Position numbers and translations under genes: made by a program | Shown: positions 58,558 to 64,000 of the stretch, in pieces | Position numbering within the stretch: the first letter of the stretch is position 1 | Layout of the letters: each line of letters opens with the position of its first letter | Notes under the pieces: model-generated | What the model was told of the DNA's origin: nothing | Seen by the model: the letters and a program-made list of their open reading frames with translations, nothing else | Database searches by the model: none | Sequence record: MH675927.1 | Length of the DNA stretch: 64,000 nt | Strand: one strand, 5' to 3' | DNA from: Escherichia phage vB_vPM_PD114

Positions 58558-60519
58558 GTGATTTTAACACGTCCAAATAGTGCCATTGCAGACATGGTAG
58601 AGTCTCGCTATAGAAAGCGTAGAAGTTTTGCAAGTGGTTTTACCTTAAGAGATGCTCGTGAAGCATTGCTCTTTGAAGCTGACGGTAACTACTATCAGTG
58701 GAAAGGTTCTCTACCTAAAGTTGTACCTGCTAACTCTACTCCTACATCTACTGGAGGGATTTCAGATACAGCTTGGAAAAATGTGGGTAATGCAGATGAC
58801 ATTGCTCAAATAGAATCAGAATTAGATGCTATTGAAGCTGAAATTGAAGATCTTAGAGAATCCATCCCAGAAGCTGGTAAATCAGCTTACCAGATGGCCG
58901 TAGACAATGGTTTCCAAGGTACTGAGACACAGTGGTTGGCTTCTTTAAAAGGTGATCCAGGTGCTCCATTAAAGCTATTAGGGACACTATCTAATACCAA
59001 CCAATTACCTACAAGTGGAAACAATGCAGGGGATGCATGGATTGTAGGCGAGAATATGTATGCTTGGGATGGTACTGCTTGGAGAAAAGTAAACTCACAG
59101 GGGCCAGAAGGTAAATCTGCTTATGAAGTATGGCTTGCAGCAGGAAACGAAGGTACAGAACTAGATTATCTTGCCGCAATTAAAGGTGATAAAGGGGAGC
59201 CTGGCCCAGAGGGGCCACAAGGTGTGCCAGGTAACAATGCTAATGGTTTTGATTACCAAGGTGCAGCTAATTCCGTTTCAGATCTTCCTTCTGCATCTCA
59301 TGGAAACACATCTCAAGCATGGAGTGTTGGTACATATCTATACGTGTCAAACGGTGTAGAATGGATCAATATGGGCGCTATAGTGGGGCCAAAAGGAGAT
59401 AAAGGCGACAAAGGAGATAAGGGTAACACTGGTGATTCAGCTTATCAAGTCTGGTTAAATGCTGGTAACGTTGGTACTATTGACGAATATATTGCCTCTC
59501 TGAAAGGAGAAAAAGGTGATAAGGGAGACAAGGGTGATCAAGGTGAACAGGGTATACAAGGCTTGACGGGGCCAACTGGTGCAGGGTTGACCATTATTGA
59601 CATTCTGACTAGCACTTCTGAACTGCCACAAACTGGAGAAGAGGGTGATGGTTATCTGATCAATAATGAACTTTGGGTCTGGTTGCAAGGAGCCACAGAG
59701 TGGACAAATGTTGGTCGTTTAGCTGGTACTCCAATCACTGCAAAAGGACACGTTGCGTCTGCAAGTGCACTTCCTCCTACAGCTAATTACGGTGATGCTT
59801 ATCTGACGGAAGATACAGGTCATCTTTACATTTACACCTATGATGAACAAACTCAAACTGCTGAATATGTAGATATGGGTAGTTTGAAAGGTGATAAGGG
59901 TGAAAAAGGTGACGCTGGTACTAACGGTACAGACGGTGCAACTTGGATTGTTAAAACAACAGATCCAATCTCTAGTGATGGTAAACAAGGTGATTATGCC
60001 TTTAATATCTCCACTGGCGAGGTGTTCTTAAAAACATCTGCAACTGTCTGGACTTCTCAAGGTACACTACCTAGTATCACAGATGCACCTAGTGATGGTA
60101 AGACTTATGCTCGTAAAGATGGAGCATGGGAAGAACTCACTAGTTCTGTAGATGGTCAAGATATAGTTCCAACAAAAGTAACAACTAATTTTATAGAGGT
60201 TACAGCATATACCAACAATTCTGTTACAGGGGACTGGACACCTCCAGGAACACATAACATGAATGTGTTGAATCTTACTGGTAACTCTACTATAAAAGCA
60301 TGGCCTGGTGTCGAAGATAGCACAAAACCTAAACCATTCTCTGCAATAGTTTATCTTATCCAAGATGCCACTGGAGGTCATACTGTTACTTTAGATCCAT
60401 CTTACAAAGTAATTGGTTCTAGTGATATTAATACAGATCCTAACGGAGTAACAATACTACAACTAACATATTGTGGTGTTGGCGATTACGTGGATGCTAT
60501 TGTTGCTAAACGCACATAA
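58558..60519 (+). CDS. tail fibre protein with collagen-like Gly-X-Y repeats
   Basis: GDKGEPGPEGPQGVPG, GPKGDKGDKGDKGNTGD, GEKGDKGDKGDQGEQGIQGLTGPTG, GDKGEKGDAGTNGTDG; GTG start after AAGGAG. Confidence 0.55.
   Translation: MILTRPNSAIADMVESRYRKRRSFASGFTLRDAREALLFEADGNYYQWKGSLPKVVPANSTPTSTGGISDTAWKNVGNADDIAQIESELDAIEAEIEDLRESIPEAGKSAYQMAVDNGFQGTETQWLASLKGDPGAPLKLLGTLSNTNQLPTSGNNAGDAWIVGENMYAWDGTAWRKVNSQGPEGKSAYEVWLAAGNEGTELDYLAAIKGDKGEPGPEGPQGVPGNNANGFDYQGAANSVSDLPSASHGNTSQAWSVGTYLYVSNGVEWINMGAIVGPKGDKGDKGDKGNTGDSAYQVWLNAGNVGTIDEYIASLKGEKGDKGDKGDQGEQGIQGLTGPTGAGLTIIDILTSTSELPQTGEEGDGYLINNELWVWLQGATEWTNVGRLAGTPITAKGHVASASALPPTANYGDAYLTEDTGHLYIYTYDEQTQTAEYVDMGSLKGDKGEKGDAGTNGTDGATWIVKTTDPISSDGKQGDYAFNISTGEVFLKTSATVWTSQGTLPSITDAPSDGKTYARKDGAWEELTSSVDGQDIVPTKVTTNFIEVTAYTNNSVTGDWTPPGTHNMNVLNLTGNSTIKAWPGVEDSTKPKPFSAIVYLIQDATGGHTVTLDPSYKVIGSSDINTDPNGVTILQLTYCGVGDYVDAIVAKRT
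59390..59580 (+). repeat. collagen-like triplet-repeat coding region (GGN-GAN-AAR periodicity)
   Basis: Nucleotide-level 9-nt periodic repeats ggagataaaggcgacaaaggagataagggt... Confidence 0.5.
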
Positions 60520-62450: not shown

Positions 62451-62477
62451 AAGGAGCCATTAGGCTCCTTTTCTTTT
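62451..62477. terminator. bidirectional terminator AAGGAGCC-ATTA-GGCTCCTT between convergent genes
   Basis: A-run upstream and T-run downstream of a perfect 8-bp stem; near-identical hairpin at 63621. Confidence 0.55.
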
Positions 62478-62480
62478 ATC

Positions 62481-62912
62481 TTAATCAGTGAAAATTACGC
62501 TTACATCTTCTTTAGAGAAGAGTTTATGATCTTCACCTTTTGTCTCAAGAGTTTCATACAGGTTAAGAAGTTCTGAAACATCTTTCTCTACTAGTTTCTT
62601 CAATGTTGCAATTTTCTGTTTGCGATTTTTAATACGTTCAGCTACAACCTTACGTTGGTATCCAGCAGTACGATAACCTGAGAAAGTTACACCAGTAAGA
62701 CTTGCAGTTACAGGATCGTAGTGACGTTCAATCTGAAATTTATTAAAAGGTACAGCGTCATCACGAATAATCTTACCGCCATTACTTACTTGACGAAGAC
62801 CAGTAACTTGTTCCAGTCGTGCCATAGAAATCTTTGGAGACAGACCAGAGTCCAGGTTCATACCGTTGTTAATCAGTGCTTTCAGGGTGATTTTGCTGTT
62901 CAGTGTACTCAT
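62481..62912 (-). CDS. hypothetical protein (143 aa)
   Basis: ORF track; GGAGG upstream of ATG. Confidence 0.35.
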   Translation of the reverse strand: MSTLNSKITLKALINNGMNLDSGLSPKISMARLEQVTGLRQVSNGGKIIRDDAVPFNKFQIERHYDPVTASLTGVTFSGYRTAGYQRKVVAERIKNRKQKIATLKKLVEKDVSELLNLYETLETKGEDHKLFSKEDVSVIFTD

Positions 62913-63600
62913 TTAGTCGTTCCTCCGCTTGCTTAAAAATATTTACATCGGCTTCACAGCCTAAGTATTCTCTACCTGTTAAAAGTGCCGCAACTTGTGT
63001 TGTTGCACTTCCAGAGAAGAAGTCTAAGACTACATCTCCTTCGTTGGTATGTATATTAATAAGGTCACAAAACAAAGTCAAGTGTTTTTGTGTTGGATGA
63101 AAACGATCTGCTCCTTGATAGATAGGATACTCAAACACACCCTTATGGTAGGAAGCATTGAAGGTTGGCTTCGAACCTTTAACACAAACAATAGCCATCT
63201 CTTTAGCGTTACTAAGGTAGTTAACACCACTGTTGATGGGTACAGGGTTTGTTTTAATCCATTCAATAGTACGGAACATACGAAAACCAAGTGGTTCAAG
63301 GATCTCACGTAGCTCCTGGATCTTCCAGATATCATACCAAACTATGCAAGTACCACCTTTTCTAAGCACCCTATAGGCTTCTTTGAATACTTCTTTAAAG
63401 TAAGGAATATCTACAACATCCCAGTCACCAAAGTTGTAAGATACACGGAATCTATCCGTATCTTTTCCAGTAGGCTCTCCAGATTGAAAATTTGTGTCAC
63501 GAGAAATAGCATATGGTGGGTCAGTAAGAATCAAATCTACACTATTGCTTTCGAGGGTTTGCAGGTAGTTTAATGCAGTGTTGTTTACAAATTCGCTCAT
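62869..63600 (-). CDS. DNA methyltransferase (DPPY motif; probably N6-adenine)
   Basis: VDLILTDPPY (motif IV) and C-terminal VLDFFSGSATT (SAM-binding motif I); RBS GAAGGAG. Confidence 0.7.
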   Translation of the reverse strand: MSEFVNNTALNYLQTLESNSVDLILTDPPYAISRDTNFQSGEPTGKDTDRFRVSYNFGDWDVVDIPYFKEVFKEAYRVLRKGGTCIVWYDIWKIQELREILEPLGFRMFRTIEWIKTNPVPINSGVNYLSNAKEMAIVCVKGSKPTFNASYHKGVFEYPIYQGADRFHPTQKHLTLFCDLINIHTNEGDVVLDFFSGSATTQVAALLTGREYLGCEADVNIFKQAEERLNEYTEQQNHPESTD

Positions 63601-63611
63601 TATATCTCCTT

Positions 63612-63638
63612 CAAAGAAAAGGAGCCGTTAGGCTCCTT
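63612..63638 (-). terminator. rho-independent terminator GGAGCC-TAAC-GGCTCC + TTTTCTTTG (minus strand)
   Basis: Read directly. Confidence 0.5.
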
Positions 63639-63660: not shown

Positions 63661-64000
63661 TTAGAAACAGTGCAGGAAGTTTCGACCATATTGCAAACCA
63701 ATAGGAGCAAATGGGATATCATCATCGAAATCTTGAACAACAGGTTCTGGTTCTTTCGGTGCTGGCTCTTTCTTCTCTACTTTTTTAGTTTCTTTCTTAA
63801 CTTCTTGTACTGGAATAGACATTCCACGGATAGCAGCAGCTACTTTATCAGACAAAGCAAGAACTTCACGAGCAGCTTCAATAATCTCTTCTGCCGTTAC
63901 AGTTTTACCTGTATGATCACGACAAGCGTTAAGAATTGCGTGTCCAACTGAAGCACCAAGATCATAGTCAGTCACATCAACGCCACGATCTTTAGCAATT
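63661..64000 (-). CDS. partial ORF (N-terminus beyond right window edge) carrying an SSB-C-terminal-tip-like motif DFDDDIPF
   Basis: Frame is open from 63975 to the window end (no stop); Lys/Glu/Pro-rich linker then ...EPVVQDFDDDIPF followed by 18 more residues. Confidence 0.4.
   Translation of the reverse strand, partial: IAKDRGVDVTDYDLGASVGHAILNACRDHTGKTVTAEEIIEAAREVLALSDKVAAAIRGMSIPVQEVKKETKKVEKKEPAPKEPEPVVQDFDDDIPFAPIGLQYGRNFLHCF

What the first reader, a model, noticed from the sequence alone, without database searches (positions are those of the whole stretch)
63661..64000. Partial ORF with an SSB C-terminal tip motif (DFDDDIPF) that is not at the C-terminus
The minus-strand frame is open to the window edge and ends ...KKEPAPKEPEPVVQDFDDDIPFAPIGLQYGRNFLHCF. 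DFDDDIPF is identical to the E. coli SSB C-terminal tip that recruits many replication/repair proteins, preceded by an SSB-like disordered linker. Here it is followed by 18 extra residues. This could be a phage SSB with an extended tail, or a protein that mimics or masks the SSB tip to hijack or block host SSB-interacting enzymes.
Basis: partly seen in the sequence, partly recalled or inferred. Interest (0 to 1): 0.5.

Follow-up and report, generated by a model that had tools for sequence, protein, structure and literature searches.

The report
Phage SSB tip capped by conserved tail
This is the end of a phi92-type phage's single-stranded-DNA-binding protein, whose host-like DFDDDIPF docking tip is followed by a strongly conserved 15-residue tail; the same tail recurs after the tip on many unrelated phage replication proteins and I found no description of it.

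Summary
The ORF is the last 112 codons of a 315-aa protein of a phi92-like myophage (Justusliebigvirus). The full protein, read from 98-99% identical genomes, has four parts: an OB fold, a four-helix domain, a disordered linker, then DFDDDIPF plus APIGLQYGRNFLHCF. It belongs to PHROG 4477. This is the family of Bas52_0087, described in a 2026 preprint as the "SSB-like" trigger of the DRT10 defence, and that protein ends at a free tip.

The tail is neither a frameshift nor junk. It shows 0 non-synonymous and 4 synonymous changes between genera. It holds 3 of the family's 18 invariant columns. The same module (A-P-[IV]-G-L-[QP]-[YF]-x-[RK]-x-[AF]-[IL]-[HY]-[AC]-[ILM]) follows the tip on canonical SSBs, other SSB families and a DnaB-type helicase.

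All 43 genuine C-terminal APIGLQY occurrences in viral contigs follow an IPF tip. About 25% of viral FDDDIPF ORFs carry some post-tip tail. Close relatives switch the tail on or off.

AF2 predicts the tail to be disordered and not self-docking. The best reading is a trans-acting linear motif that removes the tip's free carboxylate and changes what the tip binds. The partner is unknown.

The parts
63823..63999 (-). C-terminal part (residues 204-262 of 315) of the four-helix middle domain of the SSB-like protein. The gene continues beyond the window edge.
   Evidence: Translation. The full-length gene in KKP_3264/Eryne is at L002/L001:3393-4340. AF2 predicts helices 163-262 with pLDDT >90. The fragment matches PHROG 4477 at E 1e-25.
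63733..63822 (-). Disordered Lys/Glu/Pro-rich linker (residues 263-292).
   Evidence: AF2 pLDDT is 46-60 with no secondary structure. It is the least conserved region, with 18 of 30 codons non-synonymous versus ECO340P2.
63709..63732 (-). SSB-type acidic tip DFDDDIPF (residues 293-300), internal rather than C-terminal.
   Evidence: Identical to the E. coli SSB C-terminus. 0 of 8 codons are non-synonymous between genera. D293, D295, D297, P299 and F300 are invariant in tail-bearing homologues. The PHROG 4477 profile ends exactly at F300.
63664..63708 (-). Post-tip tail APIGLQYGRNFLHCF (residues 301-315), a conserved portable 15-residue extension.
   Evidence: 0 non-synonymous and 4 synonymous changes in 15 codons versus ECO340P2. 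G304, L305 and Y307 are invariant. The same module occurs on unrelated carriers. It is always preceded by the tip. AF2 predicts it disordered and not self-docking.
63661..63663 (-). Stop codon TAA, followed immediately by a second TAA.
   Evidence: Sequence.
63619..63638 (-). Terminator-like hairpin AAGGAGCC-TAAC-GGCTCCTT followed by a T run, between the SSB-like gene and the methyltransferase gene.
62869..63600 (-). Downstream gene (context only): N6/N4 DNA methyltransferase.
   Evidence: Pfam PF01555, E 1.9e-30.

Best explanation
The ORF is the 3' end of the gene for the phage's SSB-like protein. Its domains are an N-terminal OB fold, a four-helix domain and a disordered linker, and it sits in the replication-gene cluster. 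Its C-terminus is a two-part short linear motif: the host-type SSB tip DFDDDIPF, fused directly to a conserved 15-residue post-tip extension. Shown: the extension is under strong purifying selection. It is always attached directly to an IPF tip. It travels with the tip between unrelated replication proteins. It is switched on or off between close relatives by small mutations. It is predicted to be disordered. Inferred: the extension acts in trans as a docking peptide. By burying the terminal Phe carboxylate, it should weaken the canonical carboxylate-anchored docking to the general host SSB interactome. At the same time it would add a new conserved surface ending in a new hydrophobic C-terminus ([IL]-[HY]-[AC]-[ILMF]-COOH). 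The net effect would be to redirect the phage SSB (and, in Mydovirus, the replicative helicase) to a narrower, still unidentified partner, most likely a host protein.
For: Identity and architecture:
- The window is 98-99% identical to phi92-like phages.
- The full-length protein is 315 aa and matches PHROG 4477 at E 3e-101.
- BLASTP to the DRT10 trigger Bas52_0087 gives 7e-15 and 1e-13.
- Neighbouring genes include a DNA polymerase and a nucleotidyltransferase.

Selection on the tail:
- Tip plus tail show 0 of 23 non-synonymous codons, against 53 of 124 in the OB domain.
- 8 of the 18 invariant columns in tail-bearing homologues lie in the tip and tail.

Portability:
- The same module is found on canonical PF00436 SSBs, DUF669 and other PHROG SSB families, PHROG 2544, 3284 and 32668, and a DnaB_C primase/helicase.
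- Every family or curated SSB profile ends at the IPF.

Coupling to the tip:
- All 43 C-terminal APIGLQY matches in viral contigs directly follow [IVT]PF. The 31 matches without a tip are spurious frames or internal.

Prevalence:
- 30 of 119 sampled viral FDDDIPF ORFs carry 8-20-residue tails.
- 194 of 756 phage records and 126 of 864 plasmid records carry a tail.
- One allele occurs in at least 169 of 5,426 complete E. coli genomes.

On/off switching:
- In Phapecoctavirus, a 1-nt change creates TGA right after IPF, with a decayed tail remnant in the 3' UTR.
- Vequintavirus alleles about 98% identical exist with and without the tail.

No self-docking:
- Tail pLDDT is 43-56 with no secondary structure in two AF2 runs, including one with a tail-only alignment.

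Literature:
- In DnaG-C the carboxylate contacts R452/K518 (PMC5872125).
- HK620 SSB uses its last six residues to recruit its cognate recombinase Sak4 (PMC5928155).
Against: - No partner was identified. No neighbouring gene family co-occurs with the tail (best uncorrected p = 0.013, present in at most 12 of 65 loci).
- No other protein in the phi92-like genome carries the motif.
- The loss of canonical docking is inferred from structures of other complexes, not measured for this peptide.
- The IPF stays invariant although it is internal. This would also fit a model in which the tail is removed to expose the tip.
- Part of the tail's identity between genera could reflect recombination rather than selection alone: 73% of its codons are identical, against about 40-48% in the folded domains.
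- ssDNA binding by this family has not been demonstrated biochemically.
Confidence: 0.55

Rival explanations
1. Removable or displaceable cap (pro-tip). The tail keeps the tip inactive until a protease trims it at or near F300, or until ssDNA binding or a partner displaces it. This would time or localise the exposure of a canonical free DDDIPF end.
For: The IPF and acidic residues stay invariant even though they are internal. Evolution readily converts tail-bearing alleles into free-tip alleles that are evidently viable. Canonical docking needs the free carboxylate (PMC3152348).
Against: AF2 gives no sign of the tail docking on the protein's own domains. The residues after F vary between tail classes (AP, LG, MG, MR, DN), so there is no conserved cleavage site. 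A simple cap would not need 15 strongly conserved residues. No protease candidate emerged.
Confidence: 0.15
2. C-terminal degron. The hydrophobic end ([RK]-x-A-I-[HY]-A-I-COOH and variants), placed after a long disordered linker, targets the protein to ClpXP, Lon or FtsH and sets its lifetime.
For: The tail sits at the extreme C-terminus, is disordered, and ends in non-polar residues. From my own knowledge, it loosely resembles the MuA-type ClpX signal (RRKKAI) and the non-polar tails recognised by FtsH. This resemblance was not tested.
Against: A degron does not explain the obligate junction with an IPF tip (43 of 43). It also does not explain the invariant G-L-x-Y in the N-terminal half of the tail. 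No match to the known degron consensus was tested or shown.
Confidence: 0.1
3. Selectively neutral read-through, or a passenger of mobile DNA (for example co-converted with a homing endonuclease gene), with no function of its own.
For: In Vequintavirus the tail-bearing alleles are those followed by an overlapping homing-endonuclease gene. Loss of the tail is tolerated.
Against: There are 0 non-synonymous against 4 synonymous changes between genera, and invariant residues persist across homologues only 31% identical. The same motif occurs on at least 8 unrelated scaffolds without any homing endonuclease nearby. Once lost, the remnant decays quickly.
Confidence: 0.04
4. Sequencing or assembly frameshift that hides a normal stop after IPF.
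For: None beyond the oddity itself. One metagenomic SSB (L052) does have a 1-nt deletion at this junction.
Against: The same frame and tail are present in dozens of independent genomes and in 86 cluster members. There is no stop after TTT in any frame-preserving reading.
Confidence: 0.01

Closest known systems
E. coli SSB C-terminal tip (SSB-Ct, ...PPMDFDDDIPF-COOH) and its interactome (ExoI, RecO, PriA, RecQ, chi, DnaG and others)
   Same: The 8-residue sequence DFDDDIPF is identical. It is preceded by a disordered linker and an OB-fold domain.
   Different: Here the Phe is not terminal, because 15 conserved residues follow it. The alpha-carboxylate that RecO Arg132 and DnaG-C R452/K518 contact is therefore absent. 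The OB domain does not match PF00436, and there is an extra four-helix domain.
Bas52_0087 of Vequintavirus RudolfGeigy, the 'SSB-like' trigger of the DRT10/UG17 defence (bioRxiv 10.64898/2026.04.29.721553)
   Same: Homologous over both the OB and the helical domains (BLASTP 7e-15 and 1e-13) and in the same PHROG 4477 family. The escape-mutation residue D252 aligns with the nearly invariant D161. DRT10 also restricts Stephanstirmvirinae, the subfamily of this window.
   Different: Bas52_0087 is 408 aa, has a second inserted domain, and ends at a free ...SFDDDIPF. The passages I read from the preprint do not mention any post-tip extension.
T7 gp2.5 (SSB) and gp4 (helicase-primase) acidic C-terminal tails ending in Phe, which bind T7 DNA polymerase (own knowledge; T7 SSB-polymerase-helicase interaction cited in 10.1101/2022.08.27.505566)
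   Same: An SSB and a replicative helicase of the same phage group carry the same kind of C-terminal docking peptide. Here the tip-plus-tail is on the SSB-like protein and, in Mydovirus KpS8, on the DnaB-type primase/helicase.
Phage HK620 SSB and Sak4 (PMC5928155)
   Same: A phage-encoded SSB whose C-terminal hexapeptide recruits a specific partner. This is a precedent for phage SSB tails having their own specificity.
   Different: HK620 SSB ends in a free NDYPPF with no post-tip extension.

Membership tests
PHROG 4477 (Bas52_0087-type phage SSB-like proteins) | Significant full-length profile match | tested here: met
   E 2.6e-101 for the full-length relative and 1e-25 for the window fragment. 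About 100 homologues were found.
PHROG 4477 (Bas52_0087-type phage SSB-like proteins) | OB-fold N-terminal domain, helical domain, disordered C-terminus with acidic IPF tip | tested here: met
PHROG 4477 (Bas52_0087-type phage SSB-like proteins) | Triggers DRT10 during infection | not testable with these tools
   Only reported for Bas52_0087. DRT10 restricts Stephanstirmvirinae at subfamily level.
Canonical bacterial SSB (Pfam PF00436 / TIGR00621) | Sequence match to the SSB OB-domain model | tested here: not met
   No Pfam family at E <= 1, no NCBIfam family, no PDB sequence match.
Canonical bacterial SSB (Pfam PF00436 / TIGR00621) | OB fold | tested here: met
Canonical bacterial SSB (Pfam PF00436 / TIGR00621) | Binds ssDNA; homotetramer | not testable with these tools
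   No biochemical data.
SSB-Ct tip as a canonical docking motif | Sequence D-F-D-D-D-I-P-F | tested here: met
   Identical to E. coli SSB residues 171-178.
SSB-Ct tip as a canonical docking motif | Phe is the C-terminal residue with a free alpha-carboxylate | tested here: not met
   15 residues follow the Phe. The role of the carboxylate is taken from PMC3152348 and PMC5872125.
T7 gp2.5-type phage SSB | Fold similarity to gp2.5 (PDB 1JE5) | tested here: inconclusive

The most novel reading that the evidence does not exclude
Post-tip extensions are an unrecognised class of short linear motif in phage replication proteins. They would convert the universal SSB tip from a general hub ligand into a selective one. 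That could mean recruiting one particular host factor, or acting as a high-affinity blocker of a host nuclease or helicase that normally reads SSB tips. Phages would switch the extension on and off by single-nucleotide changes, in an arms race with defences that monitor SSB and ssDNA metabolism (DRT10, Retron-Eco8 and others). The host-specific tail classes (Enterobacterales/Vibrio, Pseudomonas, Burkholderia-type) would then reflect co-evolution with a host target.
Probability: 0.3. Interest if true: 0.8.

Novelty: new variant of a known kind. Interest (0 to 1): 0.6.

Why it matters
In the SSB literature I read, and to my knowledge in general, the tip works as a terminal peptide: the free carboxylate of the last Phe anchors it in partner pockets. 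Here roughly a quarter of sampled phage-encoded tips are not terminal, and they carry conserved, host-group-specific extensions that annotation labels simply "ssb".

If the extension changes partner choice, it would give a simple handle on two questions. One is how phages separate their own ssDNA transactions from the host SSB interactome. The other is why several defence systems that sense phage SSBs see some phages and not others. It could also matter for recombineering, where compatibility between the SSB tail and the recombinase limits portability.

The idea is directly testable with peptides and with one-codon phage edits. Natural near-isogenic pairs already exist in the BASEL collection: Bas50 (with tail) versus Bas48, Bas52 and Bas57 (without).

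Tried and rejected
- **Sequencing frameshift:** rejected.
- **Other tip- or tail-bearing proteins in the same phage:** none in the window or in the whole KKP_3264 genome.
- **Self-docking of the tail:** two AF2 runs, the second with a tail-only alignment, both show a disordered tail.
- **Solved structures containing a tail:** none. PDB SSB chains match only up to the IPF, and phiEB49-type SSB has no PDB relative.
- **Literature:** motif strings returned 0 papers. Descriptive searches found the DRT10 preprint, the HK620 SSB paper and ETfinder, none of which describes a post-tip extension. The library holds open-access papers only, so a prior description elsewhere cannot be excluded.
- **Adjacent partner gene:** neighbour enrichment over 65 tail-bearing and 80 free-tip loci was negative.
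- **Beta-clamp-binding motif (QL[SD]LF / QLxLxL):** considered by eye and rejected. The Gln is often Pro or Met, and the spacing of the hydrophobic residues does not fit.
- **LexA-type Ala-Gly self-cleavage site:** absent.
- **Profile search with a short query in the 5.8-billion-protein index:** returned only short fragments. These were useful for tail variants but not for a census of carriers.
- **Tail as evasion of DRT10:** not supported at subfamily level, because DRT10 restricts Stephanstirmvirinae, which carry the tail. Per-phage data are in a figure I could not read.

Full report
**1. The observation**

The minus strand from 63999 to 63664 is an open frame that runs off the window edge. 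It ends ...KKEPAPKEPEPVVQDFDDDIPFAPIGLQYGRNFLHCF, followed by TAA TAA. DFDDDIPF (63732-63709) equals the last eight residues of E. coli SSB, as seen in PDB chain 1eqq_A ending ...PPMDFDDDIPF at residue 178.

**2. What the gene is**

The last 1.6 kb of the window is 98-99% identical to about 65 phage genomes of the phi92 group (Justusliebigvirus, Stephanstirmvirinae), for example Serratia phage KKP_3264 and phi92 itself. In these genomes the gene is complete and encodes 315 aa. The window holds residues 204-315.

The gene lies downstream of a DNA polymerase gene, a nucleotidyltransferase gene and a small ORF. It is followed by a terminator-like hairpin, a DNA methyltransferase gene (PF01555, E 2e-30) and another ORF. 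After these come convergently transcribed tail-fibre genes.

Pfam, NCBIfam and PDB sequence searches find nothing for this protein. PHROG 4477 ("unknown function") matches at E 3e-101, and its profile ends exactly at F300.

AlphaFold2 with a 57-sequence family alignment gives:
- a confident beta-barrel at residues 1-130
- a disordered stretch at 131-160
- a confident four-helix domain at 163-262
- a disordered C-terminus at 263-315

A 2026 preprint describes the Vequintavirus homologue Bas52_0087 as an "SSB-like" protein with an FDDDIPF "C-tip". Mutations in it let the phage escape the DRT10 reverse-transcriptase defence. I fetched that gene. It is 408 aa, homologous to the window protein over both domains (BLASTP 7e-15 and 1e-13), and ends at a free ...SFDDDIPF.

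So the family and its tip are known. The extended form is not discussed in the passages I read.

**3. The tail is real, selected and portable**

Of 100 homologues, about three quarters end exactly at ...IPF. About twenty, scattered over the family, continue with AP[IV]GLQY-x4-[IL]-[HY]-[AC]-h.

*Selection.* I compared the phi92-type gene with that of ECO340P2, which is in a different genus and 63% identical overall:
- the tail has 0 non-synonymous and 4 synonymous differences in 15 codons
- the tip has 0 non-synonymous differences in 8 codons
- the OB domain has 53 non-synonymous differences in 124 codons
- the preceding linker has 18 in 30

In an alignment of 19 tail-bearing members (31-98% identity), only 18 columns of the whole protein are invariant. 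Eight of them are in the tip and tail: D293, D295, D297, P299, F300, G304, L305, Y307.

*Portability.* The same module follows an IPF tip on unrelated scaffolds:
- canonical PF00436 SSBs of lambdoid and other phages, such as mEp235, mEp013 and JK004
- the small Drexlerviridae/Vibrio-phage SSB type (phiEB49 gp26, K433)
- DUF669-type SSBs
- PHROG 2544, 3284 and 32668 proteins
- the DnaB-type primase/helicase of Mydovirus KpS8, which ends ...DDDTPFAPIGLQYAKHAIYVI

Wherever a family or curated SSB model matched a carrier's C-terminus, the match stopped at the IPF.

*Coupling to the tip.* A scan of viral contigs for back-translated APIGLQY gave 74 matches. Of these, 43 lie 7-9 codons before the stop of a long ORF, and all 43 are immediately preceded by [IVT]PF. 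The other 31 are in short spurious frames or deep inside large ORFs. The tail is therefore obligately coupled to the tip.

*Consensus.* From 65 distinct 15/16-mers the pattern is A-P-[IV]-G-L-[QPM]-[YF]-x-[RKN]-x-[AFL]-[IL]-[HY]-[AVC]-[ILM]. There is also a 14-mer variant, APIGLQYPxLLNCM.

**4. How common it is**

- In GenBank phages, 194 of 756 records with a tip hit include the tail.
- On plasmids the figure is 126 of 864, many of them 85-95 kb and non-mobilizable.
- The mEp235-type allele alone is present in at least 169 of 5,426 complete E. coli genomes, where it is annotated just "ssb".

Other tail classes exist. APLHHLAGA-type 9-mers are found in Pseudomonas phages. The ...RGADVCWRAM and ...NPYRGAxALIV types are nearest a Burkholderia phage. 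So tail classes follow host groups. That fits a host-side partner, but it also fits gene exchange that is limited by host range.

**5. Evolutionary switching**

Within Phapecoctavirus, ECO340P2 has the tail, while Schickermooser and phiWec179 do not. Their genes read CCA TTC TGA where the tail-bearing gene reads CCA TTT GCT. The next ~20 nt of their 3' UTR still resemble the tail codons (12 of the first 15 identical). This looks like loss by a single-nucleotide event that restores a free IPF end.

Within Vequintavirus, rV5, phiWec189 and DrSchubert (Bas50) carry the tail. In rV5 and DrSchubert an overlapping homing-endonuclease gene follows it. About 98% identical relatives (Bas48, Bas52, Bas57, FV3, Murica) end at IPF, followed in the two I inspected (Bas48, Bas57) by a terminator.

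Every Justusliebigvirus listed in the search carries the tail.

**6. Mechanism**

*Shown:*
- The tail is predicted to be disordered and does not dock on the protein's own domains. This held even when AF2 was given only tail-bearing sequences (tail pLDDT 43-56).
- No adjacent gene family co-occurs with the tail.
- No other protein of the phage carries the tail.

*From the literature:*
- Canonical tip docking uses the terminal carboxylate. RecO Arg132 anchors it, and R132A is among the strongest binding-loss mutants. In DnaG-C, R452 and K518 contact it.
- A phage SSB can use its own terminal hexapeptide to recruit a cognate phage protein (HK620 SSB and Sak4).

*Inferred:* the tip plus tail is one composite, trans-acting linear motif. 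The extension should weaken carboxylate-dependent docking to the general host SSB interactome. It also provides a new conserved surface and a new hydrophobic C-terminus. Together these would redirect the phage SSB (and, in Mydovirus, the helicase) to a narrower partner.

The partner is probably host-encoded. The same tail occurs both in phages with their own polymerase (phi92-like and rV5-like) and in phages without one (lambdoid, T1-like).

Sharing one tail between an SSB and a helicase recalls T7 gp2.5 and gp4. That is an analogy only, taken from my own knowledge.

I give this reading about 0.55. The identity of the protein as the phage SSB-like factor I put at about 0.9.

**7. Rival explanations**

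- A removable or displaceable cap would explain why the IPF stays invariant. It lacks a conserved cleavage context and would not need 15 conserved residues.
- A degron would fit a disordered hydrophobic C-terminus. It does not explain the obligate junction with IPF or the invariant G-L-x-Y.
- Neutral read-through or hitch-hiking with a homing endonuclease is contradicted by the substitution pattern and by the many carriers with no endonuclease nearby.
- A sequencing frameshift is excluded.

**8. Novelty and limits**

The protein family, its OB fold and its tip are known. The post-tip extension as a conserved, portable, switchable module appears undescribed in the searchable open-access literature, in Pfam, NCBIfam and PHROG models, and in the PDB. 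A description in subscription-only papers cannot be excluded.

No partner or phenotype is established here. I rate it a new variant of a known kind, with interest 0.6.

Noticed in passing
L086:2012-3931 (IMGVR_UViG_3300020046_003745): A complete SU10-type portal protein (PF23899, E 2e-178; 634 aa) has an SSB-like Gln-rich linker, tip and tail fused to its C-terminus (...EFDDKIPFAPIGLQYRSILNCM). It could be a real gene fusion or a chimeric metagenomic assembly.
   Followed up: partly
L052:~780-900 (IMGVR_UViG_2905715590_000001): A canonical SSB has a 1-nt deletion exactly at the CCATT(C)GCG tip/tail junction. It reads ...DDDIPSRPSACSTLLY* and leaves an intact APIGLQYPALLMCM out of frame. This is either a natural frameshift allele or a homopolymer sequencing error.
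   Followed up: partly
L005:3044-3667 (rV5 ORF213) and L019:891-1316 (DrSchubert bas50_0089): In Vequintavirus the tail-bearing alleles are followed by a homing endonuclease / endonuclease VII gene whose start overlaps the last ~9 codons of the tail. The tail-less alleles lack this gene. Homing with co-conversion may be one route by which tails spread.
   Followed up: partly
window 62451-62470 and 63619-63638: Two terminator-like hairpins share the same 8-bp stem (AAGGAGCC-N4-GGCTCCTT), where 0 such matches are expected by chance. One is bidirectional, between convergent gene blocks. ECO340P2 has the same stem after its SSB-like gene.
   Followed up: partly
window 58558-60519 (+): A 653-aa tail-fibre ORF has collagen-like G-x-x runs (GDKGDKGDKGNTGDS..., GEKGDKGDKGDQGEQGIQGLTGPTG). 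Relatives annotate it as a tail fiber protein.
   Followed up: no
one search hit list (MG065639, MG065645, MG065656, MG065689): Several GenBank records named 'Campylobacter phage' (host C. jejuni, ~146 kb) are 98.3% identical over the 1.6-kb query to these E. coli phi92-like phages. Others match rV5-like phages. The host labels look doubtful.
   Followed up: no
H176-H187 (complete E. coli chromosomes) and plasmid hits H147-H160: Tail-bearing prophage and phage-plasmid SSBs are annotated simply as 'ssb: single-stranded DNA-binding protein', so the extension is invisible in annotation. Curated SSB models end at the tip.
   Followed up: yes
P0222, P0261, P0259, P0264 (metagenomic proteins): Small proteins with no recognisable OB domain also end in tip plus tail. 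They include an Ead/Ea22-like N-terminus, a TraI_2-like N-terminal fragment, and proteins of 86-98 aa. Some may be fragments or recombinants.
   Followed up: no
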